Source: an uncultured virus (IMG/VR IMGVR_UViG_3300032167_000097)
Taxonomy: Duplodnaviria; Heunggongvirae; Uroviricota; Caudoviricetes
Strand: one strand, 5' to 3'
Length of the DNA: 20,000 nucleotides
IMG/VR virus record: IMGVR_UViG_3300032167_000097
The position numbers and the translations under genes were made by a program. How positions within the stretch are numbered: position 1 is the stretch's first letter; each line of letters begins with the position of its first letter. Below, one piece after another: positions 11,654 through 18,286 of the stretch. The notes below the pieces were generated by a model that saw only the letters and a list, made by a program, of their open reading frames with translations, did no database searches and was not told where the DNA came from.

Positions 11654-11911
11654 TTACTCATAGTAAAATTTAACAGTTTCTTTAAATTCTTTATTTTTCT
11701 CATTAAAATATTCATATAATACTTTTAATGCTGATACAATTTTATCACATTCACTTATAGTTAATTCTTCTTCATATTGCATTAAAGTATTTTGCCAATA
11801 ATTAAATACCCTTAAATAAGGATTTTTAATATTATCATCATAAGGTGTAAAATCTTCTCCCCTTTTAATACTCTTTGCAATACATAATAATTGGTCAAAT
11901 TTTCGTAACAT
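11654..11911 (-). CDS. hypothetical protein
   Basis: Start moved to MLRKF with SD AAAGGAG. Confidence 0.75.
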   Translation of the reverse strand: MLRKFDQLLCIAKSIKRGEDFTPYDDNIKNPYLRVFNYWQNTLMQYEEELTISECDKIVSALKVLYEYFNEKNKEFKETVKFYYE

Positions 11912-11934
11912 AAAAATATCTCCTTTCATAAAAA

Positions 11935-12021
11935 GAACTTGGAGGGGATTTGAACCCCTCGTCTTTACTTAATCAAATAAATGATTAGAGGTAATGCACT
12001 AACCCGACTATGCTACAAGTT
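11935..12021 (-). tRNA. atypical tRNA-like RNA A (extended anticodon arm; identity undetermined, possible CUA)
   Basis: AACTTG/CAAGTT acceptor; D arm GCAT-AGTCGGGTTA-GTGC; T arm GAGGGG-TTCAAAT-CCCCTC; anticodon stem TTAC/GTAA encloses 22 nt; no encoded CCA. Confidence 0.65.
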
Positions 12022-12102
12022 ATCCCTTTTTTGTAGAGTAGTGACGAAATCTACCCATTCCCTTATGTTGTCATCATTAGGGATTATTCCTTGTGGGAAT
12101 AA

Positions 12103-12322
12103 AGATTGTAGATGGGATTTGAACCCATAAATGAAGTAGTTCCTCTAATAATTCGATAATCAAATACTTTACATTTTGCACATAATATATTTCTTCAATT
12201 ATTTCCTTATTGTTCTTTTAAGTGGTACATACTGTGCAATATGTATTACTCCAAATAAAAGTGAGTCATATTTCCTTCGCCCGTCCATACGGGTGTGTCT
12301 ACGCTTTTCCACCACTACAATC
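12103..12322 (-). ncRNA. tRNA-like RNA B with about 150-nt insert
   Basis: GATTGTAG/CTACAATC acceptor; Leu-like D arm GGTGGAAAAGCGTAGACAC; CCCGT-ATGG-ACGGG arm with 4-nt loop; T arm ATGGG-TTCAAAT-CCCAT. Confidence 0.7.
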
Positions 12323-12324
12323 AC

Positions 12325-12456
12325 TGGATTGGTACGGAATTGAACCGTCTTGCTCCCATAGCGTCTTACACTTATTAAGTGTATCGGTGGACTCGAACCA
12401 CATTTCAACATCTGCCTGCCAGCCTAGATGTAGTGCCCTCTTTACACACCAATCCA
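12325..12456 (-). ncRNA. tRNA-like RNA C with two T-loop arms
   Basis: TGGATTGGT/ACCAATCCA terminal helix; outer T arm ACGG-TTCAATT-CCGT; inner T arm GTGG-TTCGAGT-CCAC; ACATCT/AGATGT and TACACTT/AAGTGTA stems. Confidence 0.7.
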
Positions 12457-12589
12457 AATATTGTGCTATTAGCATATCTGACAATATCTAATAGCTGGTT
12501 CTGTATTTTACGCATTGCAGAACACCATTTGCGAGTTTTTGTAGTGGTTACATATGTCAGTATGACTACTACGAGTTTTCTTTCTCAAA

Positions 12590-12736
12590 ATGAGTAGGTA
12601 AGGATTTGAACCTTACAACAGACCAGGAGTTTCCCAATGTAACAACTTACTAATGACGGACTCGAACCGTAATACCTAGTCTTTTCGTTAGTTACTTTCA
12701 CTTTCTCCATACACCTTTTCGGAGATTTACTACTCA
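12590..12736 (-). ncRNA. tRNA-like RNA D with two T-loop arms
   Basis: TGAGTAG/CTACTCA acceptor; T arm GTAAGG-TTCAAAT-CCTTAC; TCTCC/GGAGA D-like arm; inner ACGG-TTCGAGT-CCGT. Confidence 0.7.
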
Positions 12737-12741
12737 ATTAT

Positions 12742-12770
12742 ATTTTATATAATAATACAATTTTATACAA
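12742..12770 (-). promoter_or_regulatory. possible promoter for the tRNA-like array
   Basis: TTGTAT-N17-TAAAAT places +1 at about 12735, the 5' end of RNA D; weak evidence in AT-rich DNA. Confidence 0.35.
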
Positions 12771-12792
12771 CTTTCTTCATATTTATTATCCC

Positions 12793-12978
12793 TTATACAT
12801 TCATAGTTCCGTCAAGATAATCATTTAATTCTTCATAATAATCTTGTAATGATTCTCCATCGTCTAACAAATCTTCGGTATCAAATAATAAATCTGCTAA
12901 ACATTGTTCTTCTTGTTGACAAATAACTCTTTCATATAAACAAGATTGACATTCAGTTCCATTACTTAAATTGCTCAT
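12793..12978 (-). CDS. hypothetical acidic protein
   Basis: 61 aa; CQSC; SD AAGGAG. Confidence 0.7.
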   Translation of the reverse strand: MSNLSNGTECQSCLYERVICQQEEQCLADLLFDTEDLLDDGESLQDYYEELNDYLDGTMNV

Positions 12979-16195: not shown

Positions 16196-16396
16196 TTAAC
16201 AAGTTTCTGAAATTACAACATTAACAAAAATTAAATCATCTTTTATATTAGAATAATTATAATCAATAACTTCTTCTGCCCATTTTTCTGAATGATATAT
16301 TTTTGCTTTTCTTAATTGCTTATCCCAAGTTTTAAGTCCACAATAATATACATTATGTTTAATATCTTTAATTACTATTCCTTTGTCTGTAACCAT
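16196..16396 (-). CDS. hypothetical protein
   Basis: 66 aa; SD GAGG; WDKQLRKAKIY motif. Confidence 0.7.
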   Translation of the reverse strand: MVTDKGIVIKDIKHNVYYCGLKTWDKQLRKAKIYHSEKWAEEVIDYNYSNIKDDLIFVNVVISETC

Positions 16397-17298
16397 ATTT
16401 TTTCTGCCTCACTTTCGTCTAAAAATCTACAATGTCTGATAAAATCATTTACTCTATCTGAAATTTCTTCTAATTTATATTTTTCAGACCAAGATAATTT
16501 TTTATCTCCATATTTTTCTAATAAGGCTTGTCTTTTTAGTTCTGATTTATTTTTAAGTTCAATATATTTCTTTATTTCCTTTTCTTTTTGTTTAGTTCTC
16601 CAAATTTCTTGCTTTTCTAATCTCTTTTCCTTATTCTTTCTCGTATTGATGATAAAAGAACGATAATCTTCATAATCAGAAAAAGTAATATATTTACCAT
16701 TATTAACATCAAAACATTCAGAATTTCTTGCTAATTCATATTCATTTGCAGCAATAACAATATAAATATTTATATCAAAAGTAGTAGCATATTTTAAAAT
16801 AGTGTCAAACATTTCTTTAATCTCTACAATCGAATCAACAGAAAGTCCACTATCAACAGCGTCAAATAATAAAACTCTATCTTTTGTAGTAATGGCTTTT
16901 GTTTTTTCTTCTTCTGACCTAAATATATTTGCTAATCTATTTTTCTGATTATTAAAAAAACCTGTCTGAAAAAAGTCTTTATATAAACAACTATCTCTTG
17001 ATACATTATATTTAATACTTTCTCCCTCTGATGCAGTCATTAAATAAGCACTACCACCATAATTATTATCCCAAATTAAAGAGGAAATAGCATTTGAACC
17101 ACCGTCAGATAAAGTATTATATAAATGGCAAGGAATATTATTATTTTTACAATGTTCTTGAATGTTTAATAATAAAGTGGTTTTTCCAATACCATTACAA
17201 CCAACTAATACAGTAACTCCTTTATGTAATTCAATTTCTCTAGGTTTTGTAGGACTAAATCCTGCATCATAAGGGTCACGCCAGGTTTTTATAATCAT
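16375..17298 (-). CDS. stand-alone ABC-type P-loop ATPase (COG3910-like) with C-terminal coiled coil
   Basis: Walker A GCNGIGKTT; signature-like SEGES; Walker B VLLFD; D-loop-like SGLS. Confidence 0.85.
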   Translation of the reverse strand: MIIKTWRDPYDAGFSPTKPREIELHKGVTVLVGCNGIGKTTLLLNIQEHCKNNNIPCHLYNTLSDGGSNAISSLIWDNNYGGSAYLMTASEGESIKYNVSRDSCLYKDFFQTGFFNNQKNRLANIFRSEEEKTKAITTKDRVLLFDAVDSGLSVDSIVEIKEMFDTILKYATTFDINIYIVIAANEYELARNSECFDVNNGKYITFSDYEDYRSFIINTRKNKEKRLEKQEIWRTKQKEKEIKKYIELKNKSELKRQALLEKYGDKKLSWSEKYKLEEISDRVNDFIRHCRFLDESEAEKIWLQTKE

Positions 17299-17311: not shown

Positions 17312-18286
17312 TTAATAATAATATCTATCTAAAACATTTTTTGAGGTAAAAGCCCAAGCAGTATTAGAATAATCAATATTTAAAGCGTCAATTTTATCAA
17401 TCAATTCAACAACACATTTCTTACCTAAATTACGAATACTTAATACTTTTGTAACTGTCATTTCTAAAACATCAGCAACAGTATCAATACTTGCTCTATG
17501 TAAAGCATTTACAGTTCTATTAGATAACCCAATTTGTTCAATATTAAGTGTTTTAAACTGATTTAAATAATTTATCTCATTTAACTTACCAAATGAAAAA
17601 TCATATAAATCAGGATATGTTGTTTCCATATAAGATTTTACATTATTCCAATCTTTCTTAATACGGTTTAACTCATTAATTTGATGAATTTCATTCTCAA
17701 GTGTTTCAAGTTCCTTTGATAAATTCTCCTTAATAGTATATAACTGCTTTAATTGTTCAATTTTATCAAAATAAAATAATTGCTTTAAAACTAATGGATT
17801 TCTTAACTTACGAAAGGCTCTCCATTCAATCTGTCTAATTCTCTCTCTTGTAACACCAAAATGTTTTGCTGTTTCTTCAAGAGTTTTAACACCATCTTCA
17901 CTAAATCTAATATTTAATACCTTTAATTCCCTTTCATTTAATGTAGACTTATATACTTCCCAAAATACATCTTCATCATATTCAGGAATAGCAACAATAT
18001 CAGTTAAATTAAATTCAAAAATACTCTTAATAATCTTATCTGATAAAGGCTCTGTTTCTAAATATAATTTCTTAAACTCGTCCTTATTTAAAGTGTGTAA
18101 ACTTTTTCTGATTTTATGATTAAAATTATCTCTAATAGAACGACTTAAATTTTGTGGTGTCATACCCAATTCAACTGCCATCTTATTCTGACTAATCTCG
18201 TCATTTAATACTTTATCAAACATTGTTGTTAAAACAACTAATTCATCTCTGACCTTTTTAATCTGTTCTGTATCTTTAACTGCCAT
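17312..18286 (-). CDS. HTH + sigma70 region 4 + RNA polymerase alpha-CTD fusion protein
   Basis: [19 protein letters not shown] (HTH); [41 protein letters not shown] (sigma4); [19 protein letters not shown]...[12 protein letters not shown] (alpha-CTD). Confidence 0.9.

What the first reader, a model, noticed from the sequence alone, without database searches (positions are those of the whole stretch)
12103..12322. RNA B: Leu-like frame, 4-nt anticodon loop and a ~150-nt variable-region cargo with alternative folds
Seen: the D arm resembles tRNA-Leu (GGTGGAA...AGACAC), but the anticodon arm is CCCGT-ATGG-ACGGG (12293-12280) and cannot decode normally. The insert has a hairpin TACATATT-GCAC-AGTATGTA (12245-12226). 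Its apex TTGCACA is complementary to TGTGCAA (12182-12176), extendable to 11 of 12 bp, giving either a pseudoknot or a mutually exclusive helix. Established: bacterial LeuRS largely ignores the anticodon, although the discriminator here is not A. Inference: a tRNA scaffold presenting a cargo RNA, loosely parallel to tmRNA but without its Ala acceptor.
Basis: partly seen in the sequence, partly recalled or inferred. Interest (0 to 1): 0.72.

Follow-up and report, generated by a model that had tools for sequence, protein, structure and literature searches.

The report
Phage leucine-tRNA look-alike with cargo
This is a real gene of an uncultured giant gut phage for an RNA that keeps the outer shape of a leucine tRNA but has no usable anticodon and carries about 150 extra bases; similar look-alikes turn out to be common and unannotated in phages, and their job is unknown.

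Summary
RNA B (12322-12103, minus strand) has an 8-bp acceptor stem, a leucine-type D arm, a 5-bp stem closed by the tetraloop AUGG where the anticodon arm should be, a 151-nt AU-rich insert and a canonical T arm. It is the third of four aberrant tRNA-like genes in an 800-nt non-coding gap of a ruminant-gut huge phage. ARAGORN (normal and intron mode) and Rfam do not call it. RNA-library contigs cover it unspliced. In near-identical strains all 8 variable sites fall in the insert and none in the 71-nt frame. The layout recurs in a large family of phage tRNA-Leu look-alikes that I defined here: 104 distinct members from a capped IMG/VR scan, none called by ARAGORN or Rfam, also present unannotated in cultured Leuconostoc phages. 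The neighbouring gene G1 scores as a member; RNA B matches only in halves. Most likely it is a non-decoding tRNA mimic whose selected part is the frame, not the cargo. The tmRNA parallel fails. The nearest published case is the Lak megaphage tRNAs with "enigmatic introns".

The parts
12315..12322 (-). RNA B acceptor stem, 5' strand GATTGTAG (8 bp; the first G pairs like G-1:C73)
   Evidence: pair probabilities 0.94-1.0
12295..12314 (-). U8-G9 and leucine-type D arm GTG-GAAAAGCGTAGA-CAC (GCG in place of G18G19)
   Evidence: model R1 aligns it to UGGCGGAAUAGGUAGACGC
12280..12293 (-). Stem at the anticodon-arm position, CCCGT-ATGG-ACGGG, 5 bp with a 4-nt loop
   Evidence: P 0.9-0.99 in the window allele, 0.51-0.56 in the variant allele; no variable site
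12129..12279 (-). 151-nt AU-rich insert ('cargo'). All 8 variable sites seen in related strains lie within its 12129-12277 stretch (25.5% G+C)
12246..12269 (-). Mini-frame ATG ACT CAC TTT TAT TTG GAG TAA after GAAGGA; the spacing of 3 nt is too short compared with the window's real genes; probably not translated
   Evidence: read; inference
12226..12245 (-). Local hairpin TACATATT-GCAC-AGTATGTA, one of two exclusive folds
   Evidence: P 0.01 in the window allele, 0.92-0.99 (seven of eight pairs) in the natural variant allele
12171..12182 (-). 3' strand of the long-range helix (pairs with 12244-12233, 11 of 12)
   Evidence: P about 0.98 in the window allele, 0 in the variant allele
12146..12162 (-). 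Alternative 'anticodon arm' TGATT-ATCGAAT-TATTA (anticodon CGA) of the second parse
   Evidence: ARAGORN after in-silico deletion; pair probability 0.02, +3.5 kcal/mol to enforce
12133..12145 (-). Short hairpin GAGG-AACTA-CTTC before the T arm (class II extra-arm remnant)
   Evidence: U>C at 12135 turns G.U into G-C; C>A at 12133 breaks the closing pair
12112..12128 (-). T arm ATGGG-TTCAAAT-CCCAT
12103..12111 (-). Acceptor 3' strand CTACAATC plus the next base T; followed by TT; no encoded CCA
12590..12736 (-). G1, first gene of the array: tRNA-Leu look-alike with an inner T-arm-like hairpin
   Evidence: R1 31.2 bits, E 3.6e-6; homologues L248 and L260 with 11 of 41 pairs compensatory
12326..12455 (-). 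U4, second gene: tRNA-like, with a hairpin capped by GGCA after the D arm and an inner T-arm-like hairpin
   Evidence: compensatory C-G to U-A at 12422/12415 in strains
11935..12021 (-). G4, fourth gene: tRNA by Rfam (30.1 bits) with a 32-nt anticodon arm

Best explanation
RNA B is a transcribed RNA derived from tRNA-Leu that does not decode. It is one of four tandem aberrant tRNA-like genes in an early-region RNA cluster of an uncultured ruminant-gut huge phage.

Shown:
- It has a leucine-type D arm, a 13-bp acceptor-plus-T stack, a canonical T arm and a stem closed by a tetraloop where the anticodon arm belongs.
- A 151-nt insert lies between that stem and the T arm.
- No tRNA or tmRNA detector accepts it.
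- It is present unspliced in RNA-library contigs.
- Among strains the frame is invariant while the insert varies and refolds.
- The same layout is common in phages.

Inferred:
- The tRNA-like ends let RNase P and the 3' tRNA-processing and CCA-adding enzymes cut it out of the array transcript and stabilise it.
- It then acts through its frame as a tRNA mimic that engages a tRNA-binding factor. Candidates are LeuRS, a processing or modification enzyme, or a tRNA-targeting host defence nuclease.
- The extra arm is tolerated, fast-evolving sequence, not a conserved functional cargo.
For: - Detectors: ARAGORN finds nothing in the window in normal mode or intron mode. Rfam tRNA gives no match to RNA B even at E up to 10.
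- Frame.
- Capped stem: P 0.9-0.99.
- Transcription: RNA-library contigs of two runs of one study lie on 12144-12575 and on 12051-12204 plus 12165-12679. They run through the insert with no joint. The flanking genes, which the DNA runs cover, are nearly uncovered.
- Strain variation: 8 of 8 variable sites of RNA B lie in 149 nt of insert and 0 in 71 nt of frame (Fisher p 0.057).
- Selection on neighbours: U4 has a compensatory C-G to U-A change, and the spacer hairpin has C-G to U-A at 12494/12466. G1 has homologues in two IMG/VR contigs with 11 of 41 pairs compensatory.
- Class: a capped scan for one T-arm word gave 123 hits. Of these, 108 had a leucine-type frame and at least 6 of 7 acceptor pairs, and 104 were distinct, 81-237 nt long. 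In 51 aligned members the acceptor covaries at 7 of 7 pairs. Only 3 of 83 interiors hold an anticodon-like 7-nt loop. Member L214 has a 5-bp stem with a tetraloop right after position 26, like RNA B.
- Model match: R1 built from the class matches RNA B's 5' half (16.4 bits, E 0.019) and 3' half (12.7 bits, E 0.17). The four best window hits all lie in the array.
Against: - No homologue of RNA B itself was found beyond strains about 95-100% identical, so its own structure has no covariation support.
- The frame-versus-insert contrast is only p 0.057.
- R1 matches RNA B only in halves, and R1 also scores genuine tRNA-Leu genes at 23-42 bits, so membership is not established.
- RNA B's T arm differs from the class signature GUAAGG-UGCAAAU-CCUUAC.
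- Contigs cannot show RNA ends, levels or rare spliced forms, and RNA libraries can hold DNA.
- Three of the four variable sites that fall in predicted pairs of the insert break them. That fits decay as well as it fits a tolerated arm.
- No binding partner, processing or charging was tested.
Confidence: 0.55

Rival explanations
1. RNA B is a decaying tRNA-Leu pseudogene. A former tRNA gene lost its anticodon loop and acquired junk sequence, and the RNA has no function.
For: - There are no homologues outside near-identical strains.
- G18G19 is replaced by GCG.
- The insert's predicted fold is not kept between alleles.
- Three of the four paired variable sites break pairs.
- The insert varies about as fast as the neighbouring gene, which has 8 listed sites in 11654-11929.
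Against: - The frame has 0 of 8 variable sites.
- The RNA array is what RNA-library contigs cover.
- The three neighbouring genes show compensatory changes or conserved homologues.
- The layout recurs in at least 104 distinct phage genes with strong acceptor covariation.
- From general knowledge, phages shed useless DNA quickly.
Confidence: 0.18
2. RNA B is a tRNA gene interrupted by an insert that is removed, as proposed for the Lak megaphage 'introns'. Removal would yield a working class II tRNA, for example tRNA-Ser(CGA) after loss of about 131 nt between the D arm and 12162.
For: - After in-silico deletion ARAGORN calls tRNA-Ser(cga) in 63 of 2077 deletions, including ones that keep the native D arm (a 26-29, b 156-160).
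- A short hairpin in the place of a class II extra arm follows (12145-12133).
- U4 gives an analogous result, 32 of 2077 deletions, with a perfect 5-bp stem and a 7-nt loop.
- Related huge phages carry tRNA genes with inserts at several positions, and Lak phages are reported to (PMC6784885, passages and Table S6).
Against: - The would-be anticodon stem has 4 pairs including one G.U plus a U.U mismatch, with pair probability 0.02.
- No joint (spliced or insert-free form) appears in two RNA and two DNA runs.
- ARAGORN intron mode finds nothing.
- No splicing machinery is known for such a site, and none is encoded in the window (Pfam on 58 frames).
- The discriminator is not the G expected for tRNA-Ser (recalled).
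- More deletions (146 of 2077) simply give a frame with the 4-nt loop.
Confidence: 0.12
3. RNA B is a tRNA scaffold that presents a functional, bistable cargo. The insert would switch between the local hairpin and the long-range helix to regulate or bind something.
For: - Both folds exist and are mutually exclusive.
- The 11-of-12 duplex is real.
- The thermodynamic model puts one natural allele almost wholly in one fold and another allele in the other.
- A complement to that 7-mer arises in only 0.7% of shuffles.
Against: - A switch under selection should keep both helices. The variant allele abolishes the long-range helix (P 0) through a change in the middle of it.
- The 7-mer test is post hoc.
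- In the wider class the extra arm is hypervariable in length (27-168 nt) and in sequence.
- No complementarity of the arms to nearby phage DNA beyond shuffled controls was found in 4 of 4 contexts tested.
Confidence: 0.1
4. RNA B is a tmRNA-like trans-translation RNA.
For: - The ends form a tRNA-like domain around a large insert.
- Related phages encode true tmRNAs (L013, L052, L055).
- A 7-codon frame lies in the insert (read).
Against: - ARAGORN makes no tmRNA call.
- Rfam tmRNA matches only the T arm at 11.7 bits.
- Pair 3:70 is U-A, not G.U.
- A full D arm is present.
- No pseudoknots are predicted.
Confidence: 0.02

Closest known systems
Lak megaphage tRNA genes with 'enigmatic introns' (Devoto et al. 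2019, PMC6784885; I read passages and Supplementary Table S6)
   Same: - Gut huge phages of about 26% G+C.
- tRNA frames interrupted by AU-rich inserts of 23-141 nt with no Rfam match.
- Some inserts hold a nested acceptor-plus-T-arm module, as U4 and G1 do here.
- Bacterial tRNA finders miss them.
   Different: - There the host tRNA keeps a normal 7-nt anticodon loop and the insert follows position 37 or 38. RNA B has no such loop, and its insert lies after a capped stem.
- RNA B's insert has no nested T arm.
- Insert-free alleles are reported there; none was seen in the four runs laid here.
- That the window's phage is a Lak phage is not shown. Only an ATPase links it to contigs of 100-600 kb.
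Phage tRNA-Leu look-alike class defined here (model R1). It is unannotated in cultured Leuconostoc phages such as LN34, phiLNTR2/3, CHA, CHB and P974.
   Same: - Leucine-type D arm.
- 13 stacked pairs of acceptor plus T stem.
- No usable anticodon loop.
- An expanded extra arm of very variable length and sequence.
- Occurs in tandem in some phages (L214).
- Missed by ARAGORN and Rfam.
   Different: - The class signature is a 6-bp T stem with loop UGCAAAU. RNA B has a 5-bp stem with UUCAAAU and an 8-bp acceptor.
- RNA B's insert (151 nt) is near the upper end of the range.
- R1 matches RNA B only in halves.
- In 5 of 5 smaller phages the class lies between a late activator and the HNH and terminase genes. 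RNA B lies among small early-type genes.
Class II tRNA-Leu of bacteria and phages (within Rfam RF00005)
   Same: U8-G9, a 3-bp D stem, a D loop of the type GAA..GUAGA, A26, a 5-bp stem at positions 27-31 and 39-43, an extra arm and a T arm.
   Different: A 4-nt loop instead of 7; GCG for G18G19; discriminator not A; a 151-nt region instead of 13-17 nt; an 8-bp acceptor.
tmRNA (RF00023)
   Same: A tRNA-like domain made by the two ends around a long insert.
   Different: No G3:U70, no tag frame with a resume codon, no pseudoknots, and a full D arm. Not detected.
Other stable tRNA-like RNAs: phage T4 species 1 and 2 RNAs of the tRNA cluster, YrlA (bacterial and mycobacteriophage Y-RNA-like tRNA mimics), and the tRNA-miRNA genes of murine gammaherpesvirus 68. 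All are recalled from memory; no call tested them.
   Same: Non-decoding RNAs that use a tRNA-like module for processing or protein binding; several are encoded beside true tRNA genes.
   Different: No sequence or model match was sought or found, beyond the absence of any Rfam hit over the region. Their architectures differ; in YrlA, for example, the ends form a Ro-binding stem, not the acceptor.

Membership tests
Canonical tRNA (RF00005 / ARAGORN) | Cloverleaf with a 7-nt anticodon loop; score at or above the Rfam gathering score of 29 bits, or an ARAGORN call | tested here: not met
   ARAGORN finds 0 genes in the window and 0 in intron mode. No RF00005 match to 12103-12322 at E up to 10.
tmRNA | Alanine acceptor with G3:U70, a tag reading frame, pseudoknots, and detection by ARAGORN or RF00023 | tested here: not met
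   Pair 3:70 is U-A. No ARAGORN tmRNA call. RF00023 matches only the 17-nt T arm, 11.7 bits against a gathering score of 47.
Lak-type intron-bearing tRNA (Devoto 2019) | Intact anticodon loop with the insert directly after position 37 or 38 | tested here: not met
   ARAGORN intron mode (10-300 nt) finds nothing. The stem after A26 is closed by 4 nt.
Lak-type intron-bearing tRNA (Devoto 2019) | Insert carries a nested acceptor-like stem plus T arm | tested here: not met
   No T-arm motif lies inside 12129-12279. U4 and G1 do have one.
Lak-type intron-bearing tRNA (Devoto 2019) | Alleles with and without the insert | tested here: inconclusive
   No joint in 2 DNA and 2 RNA runs. Only four runs were laid, as contigs.
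   UG-GUG-GAAAAGCGUAGA-CAC. The class includes GUG/CAC stems (6 of 83) and GAAAAGGUAGA loops. R1 aligns the 5' half at 16.4 bits, E 0.019.
   RNA B has AUGGG-UUCAAAU-CCCAU. The 3' half scores 12.7 bits, E 0.17.
   The stack is 8+5 pairs in RNA B and 7+6 in the class.
   Only two half matches were found. The model penalises a 151-nt insert, and it also scores true tRNA-Leu genes at 23-42 bits.
Group I intron in tRNA-Leu | Intron in the anticodon loop with a P3-P8 core, usually 200 nt or more | tested here: not met
   No Rfam intron family matches at E up to 10. The insert is 151 nt and 25.5% G+C. The size rule is recalled.

The most novel reading that the evidence does not exclude
RNA B and its neighbour G1 belong to a large, so far undescribed superfamily of phage-encoded anticodon-less tRNA-Leu mimics. 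The superfamily runs from 28-kb dairy Leuconostoc phages to gut huge phages. Its invariant tRNA-Leu frame would engage a host tRNA-binding factor, such as LeuRS or a tRNA-directed defence nuclease. Its hypervariable arm would be the evolving part in a phage-host conflict or a specificity module. Minimal tRNA-Leu lacking the anticodon arm is reported to be chargeable (recalled, not checked), and about half of the class keeps A73, so some members may even be leucylated for a non-ribosomal use.
Probability: 0.3. Interest if true: 0.8.

Novelty: new variant of a known kind. Interest (0 to 1): 0.55.

Why it matters
Phage tRNA genes are usually read as codon-usage helpers or as replacements for tRNAs cut by host defences. 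A tRNA-Leu shape that has given up decoding but is kept, expressed and repeated points to a second use of the tRNA fold by phages. That use could be as a mimic, a decoy or a processing handle. Annotation pipelines miss these genes completely.

The class found here also occurs in cultured, harmless dairy phages, so its function can be tested directly at the bench. RNA B alone would be a curiosity. Together with its array and the wider class, it gives the 'enigmatic' insert-bearing tRNAs of huge phages a testable framework.

Tried and rejected
Searches for relatives of RNA B:
- blastn of 11900-12800 against 50,697 phage records gave no match.
- An exact 21-mer of the D arm and a 20-mer of the insert hairpin gave 0 hits in IMG/VR.
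- One search used a gapped pattern whose gap (100-130) was too short to match even the window. It is void and shows nothing.
- The flanking protein P0001 and the ATPase, used as single queries, found no relative in IMG/VR. The ATPase found none in the phage records.
- An ATPase profile found 76 metagenome loci, 62 IMG/VR loci and 3 genome loci. All are at most about 60% identical, and only 2-3 window genes are shared. blastn of the RNA region against the first 76 loci gave one 19-nt match.
- No whole genome is held for the window.
- Of 5 records asked for only 1 was held. It has no RF00005 match at E up to 1.

Other tests:
- Pfam on 58 frames of the window found no RNA-processing enzyme.
- MAFFT of RNA B with G1 and the G001 element was uninformative.
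- The shared GAT(T)ATCGAAT between RNA B and the G001 element, and the 10-nt repeat shared with G4, may be chance.
- Extra arms of class members showed no complementarity to 8 kb of their own phage beyond shuffles in 4 of 4 tested; a fifth was not parsed.
- A quadruplet-anticodon reading comes from ARAGORN's 'tRNA-???(atgg)' calls in 146 of 2077 deletions. I set it aside because positions 32:38 and 33:37 would be Watson-Crick pairs that close the loop.

RNA cover: in the two RNA runs nothing was laid on most of the flanking genes. That is no proof that they are silent.

Literature searches found no paper on such look-alikes beyond the Lak reports. One listing (PMC10763512) turned out to refer to tmRNA.

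Full report
**What is there**

The window is 26% G+C, and nearly all of its reading frames lie on the minus strand. It looks like the early region of a large phage. It has many small frames, a sigma-factor-like protein, a T4 gp30.3-like protein and an AAA ATPase. 40 of the 59 frames have a Shine-Dalgarno word upstream, and among the 57 frames outside the RNA gap TAG is used as a stop in 9. No whole genome is held for the window.

The ATPase at 16375-17298 has 1233 relatives. One is 95% identical; the rest are at most about 61% identical, on contigs of up to 600 kb. Loci fetched with an ATPase profile lie on contigs of 379, 500 and 573 kb. Public runs that hold the stretch are bovine, sheep and other animal gut or faeces samples. 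So this is an uncultured ruminant-gut huge phage. Kinship to the published Lak megaphages is plausible but not shown.

**The RNA cluster**

Between the frames ending at 12793 and starting at 11929 lies an 860-nt gap with raised G+C (0.34 against about 0.25). All six T-arm motifs of the window lie there, on the minus strand. With their acceptor-like stems they define four tandem genes:
- G1 (12736-12590), with an inner T-arm hairpin
- U4 (12455-12326), also with an inner T-arm hairpin
- RNA B (12322-12103)
- G4 (12021-11935)

ARAGORN calls none of them, in normal or intron mode. Rfam accepts only G4, at 30.1 bits, with 22 nt where 9 are expected in the anticodon arm.

**Check of the observation**

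- RNA B's ends pair over 8 bp, next to a canonical T arm.
- The D arm is that of a class II leucine tRNA. UG-GUG-GAAAAGCGUAGA-CAC compares with UG-GUG-GAAAUGGAAUA-CAC in a genuine tRNA-Leu of a related phage.
- A26 follows, then CCCGU-AUGG-ACGGG, which folds with probability 0.9-0.99.
- The 11-of-12 long-range duplex is real.

**Is the insert an intron?**

Two metatranscriptome runs of one study gave contigs on 12144-12575 and on 12051-12204 plus 12165-12679. They are continuous through the insert, and no joint appears in any of the four runs laid. Flanking genes that the DNA runs cover were almost uncovered in the RNA runs. This is a weak hint that the RNA cluster is the abundant transcript. 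Contigs cannot show ends, levels or rare spliced forms, and RNA libraries can contain DNA.

An in-silico scan of 2077 single deletions gave 214 ARAGORN calls:
- 146 are the frame with the 4-nt loop, read as an 8-nt loop with 'anticodon' AUGG.
- 63 are a class II 'tRNA-Ser(CGA)'. This parse uses a weak arm, UGAUU-AUCGAAU-UAUUA, at 12162-12146, followed by the hairpin GAGG-AACUA-CUUC.
- The remaining 5 calls are scattered.

That weak arm has pair probability 0.02 and costs 3.5 kcal/mol to enforce. Splicing to a working tRNA is therefore possible but poorly supported.

**Strain variation**

Against the window, the laid contigs differ at 8 places in RNA B. All 8 lie in 12133-12277 and none in the 71 nt of frame (Fisher p 0.057). 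Of the four that fall in predicted pairs, one improves a pair and three break pairs.

U>A at 12238 and G>A at 12232 occur together in two runs. With them the model flips from the long-range helix (P about 0.98 in the window allele) to the local hairpin (P 0.92-0.99 for seven of its eight pairs), with no long-range helix at all.

Elsewhere in the cluster selection on structure is visible:
- C-G to U-A in the GGCA-capped stem of U4
- wobble-preserving changes in U4's acceptor
- C-G to U-A in a long spacer hairpin, at 12494/12466

**Relatives and the wider class**

No sequence relative of RNA B was found in phage records, IMG/VR or 76 related metagenome loci. The layout, however, recurs.
- Related huge-phage loci hold 112-156-nt tRNA-shaped genes that ARAGORN misses. 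In four loci these fall into families whose frames are invariant while the interiors vary.
- A relative with a 55%-identical ATPase has a leucine-type look-alike whose T arm, GUAAGG-UGCAAAU-CCUUAC, is shared with G1. G1 has UUCAAAU in the loop.
None of the 122 T-arm hits in them was called by ARAGORN.
- Counting the earlier loci too there were 123 T-arm hits. 108 had a leucine-type D arm preceded by a 7-mer pairing at 6 or more of 7 positions with the 3' end. 104 were distinct, 81-237 nt long, with a median of 120.
- Rfam found nothing on the elements in 20 of these loci at E up to 0.1.
- In 51 aligned members the acceptor covaries at 7 of 7 pairs, with 97.5% paired against 35-45% in slid controls. 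This is partly circular, because pairing was used to pick the members.
- D stems covary: GCG/CGC, GUG/CAC and ACG/CGU all occur.
- Interiors run from 27 to 168 nt, are unalike, and hold an anticodon-like loop in only 3 of 83.
- Member L214 (83 nt) has a 5-bp stem with a GACG tetraloop directly after position 26. That is RNA B's layout without the cargo. It also stands in tandem with another member.
- In 5 of 5 smaller phage or prophage records the element lies between a late transcriptional activator and the HNH and terminase genes.
- It is also present, unannotated, near the genome end of cultured Leuconostoc phages such as LN34, phiLNTR2/3, CHA, CHB and P974.

**Membership**

A covariance model of the class (R1) scores G1 at 31.2 bits (E 3.6e-6). 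It scores RNA B only as two halves, 16.4 bits (E 0.019) and 12.7 bits (E 0.17), and the four best window hits are all in the cluster. R1 also scores genuine tRNA-Leu genes at 23-42 bits, so it shows descent from tRNA-Leu and not a separate identity. RNA B is best called a divergent relative by architecture. Its formal membership is open. G1 has two clear homologues, with 11 of 41 pairs compensatory.

**What it most likely is**

RNA B is most likely a non-decoding tRNA-Leu look-alike. Selection appears to hold the frame, and the extra arm drifts. By inference, the tRNA-like ends give processing and stability, and the frame engages some tRNA-binding factor.

Leucylation is doubtful for RNA B, because its discriminator is C or U. 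In the class, A stands at position 73 in 54 of 104 members and U in 42. The pseudogene, spliced-tRNA and bistable-cargo readings remain open at lower odds. The tmRNA reading is effectively excluded.

**Literature**

Devoto et al. 2019 (PMC6784885; I read passages and Table S6) report Lak megaphage tRNAs with 'enigmatic introns', some of which encode a tRNA-like module. Crisci et al. 2021 (PMC8346664; passages) repeat this. Five searches found no paper on anticodon-less tRNA-Leu look-alikes in phages. Subscription journals are not covered by these searches.

Earlier unchecked notes of this scan describe similar leucine look-alikes in other phages. I did not test them.

Noticed in passing
window 12590-12736 (-); L248:170-327:+; L260:292-436:-: G1 is a conserved RNA of about 147 nt. 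It has an acceptor, a D arm UCUCC-GAAAAGGUGUAU-GGAGA, an inner T-arm-like hairpin, a long helix and the T arm GUAAGG-UUCAAAU-CCUUAC. Two IMG/VR homologues show 11 of 41 predicted pairs kept through changes on both sides.
   Followed up: partly
loci L149-L268 (IMG/VR); L274 (Leuconostoc phage LN34, record 146-231): A widespread, unannotated class of phage tRNA-Leu look-alikes. The frame is invariant (D arm GCG-GAAUAGGUAGA-CGC; T arm with loop UGCAAAU, G at position 55) and the interior is hypervariable. In 5 of 5 smaller phages it lies between a late activator and the HNH and terminase genes. It is also present in cultured dairy phages.
   Followed up: partly
window 11935-12021 (-): G4 scores as a tRNA (30.1 bits), but its anticodon arm is 32 nt long. 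It reads UUAC-C-UC-UAAUCA-UUUAUU-UGAUUA-A-GUAA. The 5' part reads CU-CUA-A, so removing about 15 nt would leave an amber-suppressor loop. ARAGORN called 'Pyl(cta)' in 3 of 942 test deletions. Related phages carry CUA tRNAs.
   Followed up: partly
window 12326-12455 (-): U4 has an 8-bp acceptor and a hairpin capped by GGCA after the D arm, with a compensatory C-G to U-A change between strains. It also has an inner T-arm-like hairpin, then a perfect 5-bp stem with the 7-nt loop UUAAUAA and a short extra arm.
   Followed up: partly
window about 12465-12495 (-): A long spacer hairpin (GCUAUUAGAUAU...AUAUGCUAAUAGC) lies between G1 and U4. It shows a compensatory C-G to U-A change at 12494/12466 in two runs.
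   Followed up: no
L052:5277-5694, L055:3704-4121, L057:2317-2560, L109:6037-6280: Two families of 116-125-nt tRNA-shaped genes in related huge phages. Their frames are invariant and their interiors variable, each interior holding a hairpin followed by the word (A/U)CAGCAA. The same word recurs in nearby spacers of L052.
   Followed up: partly
L142:1540-1680 (+): A G+C-rich stretch of about 130 nt follows the leucine look-alike in the related 121-kb phage record and precedes the next gene. It has no Rfam match at E up to 10.
   Followed up: no
window 17312-18286 (-): A 324-aa protein combines sigma-70 region 4 (residues 115-163) with an RNA polymerase alpha C-terminal domain (residues 243-299), an unusual fusion.
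   Followed up: no
L013:8524-8879, L052:4454-4774, L055:2881-3201: Related huge phages encode tmRNAs (tags ADNRLAMVA and ADYTENRMAA) inside their tRNA arrays.
   Followed up: no
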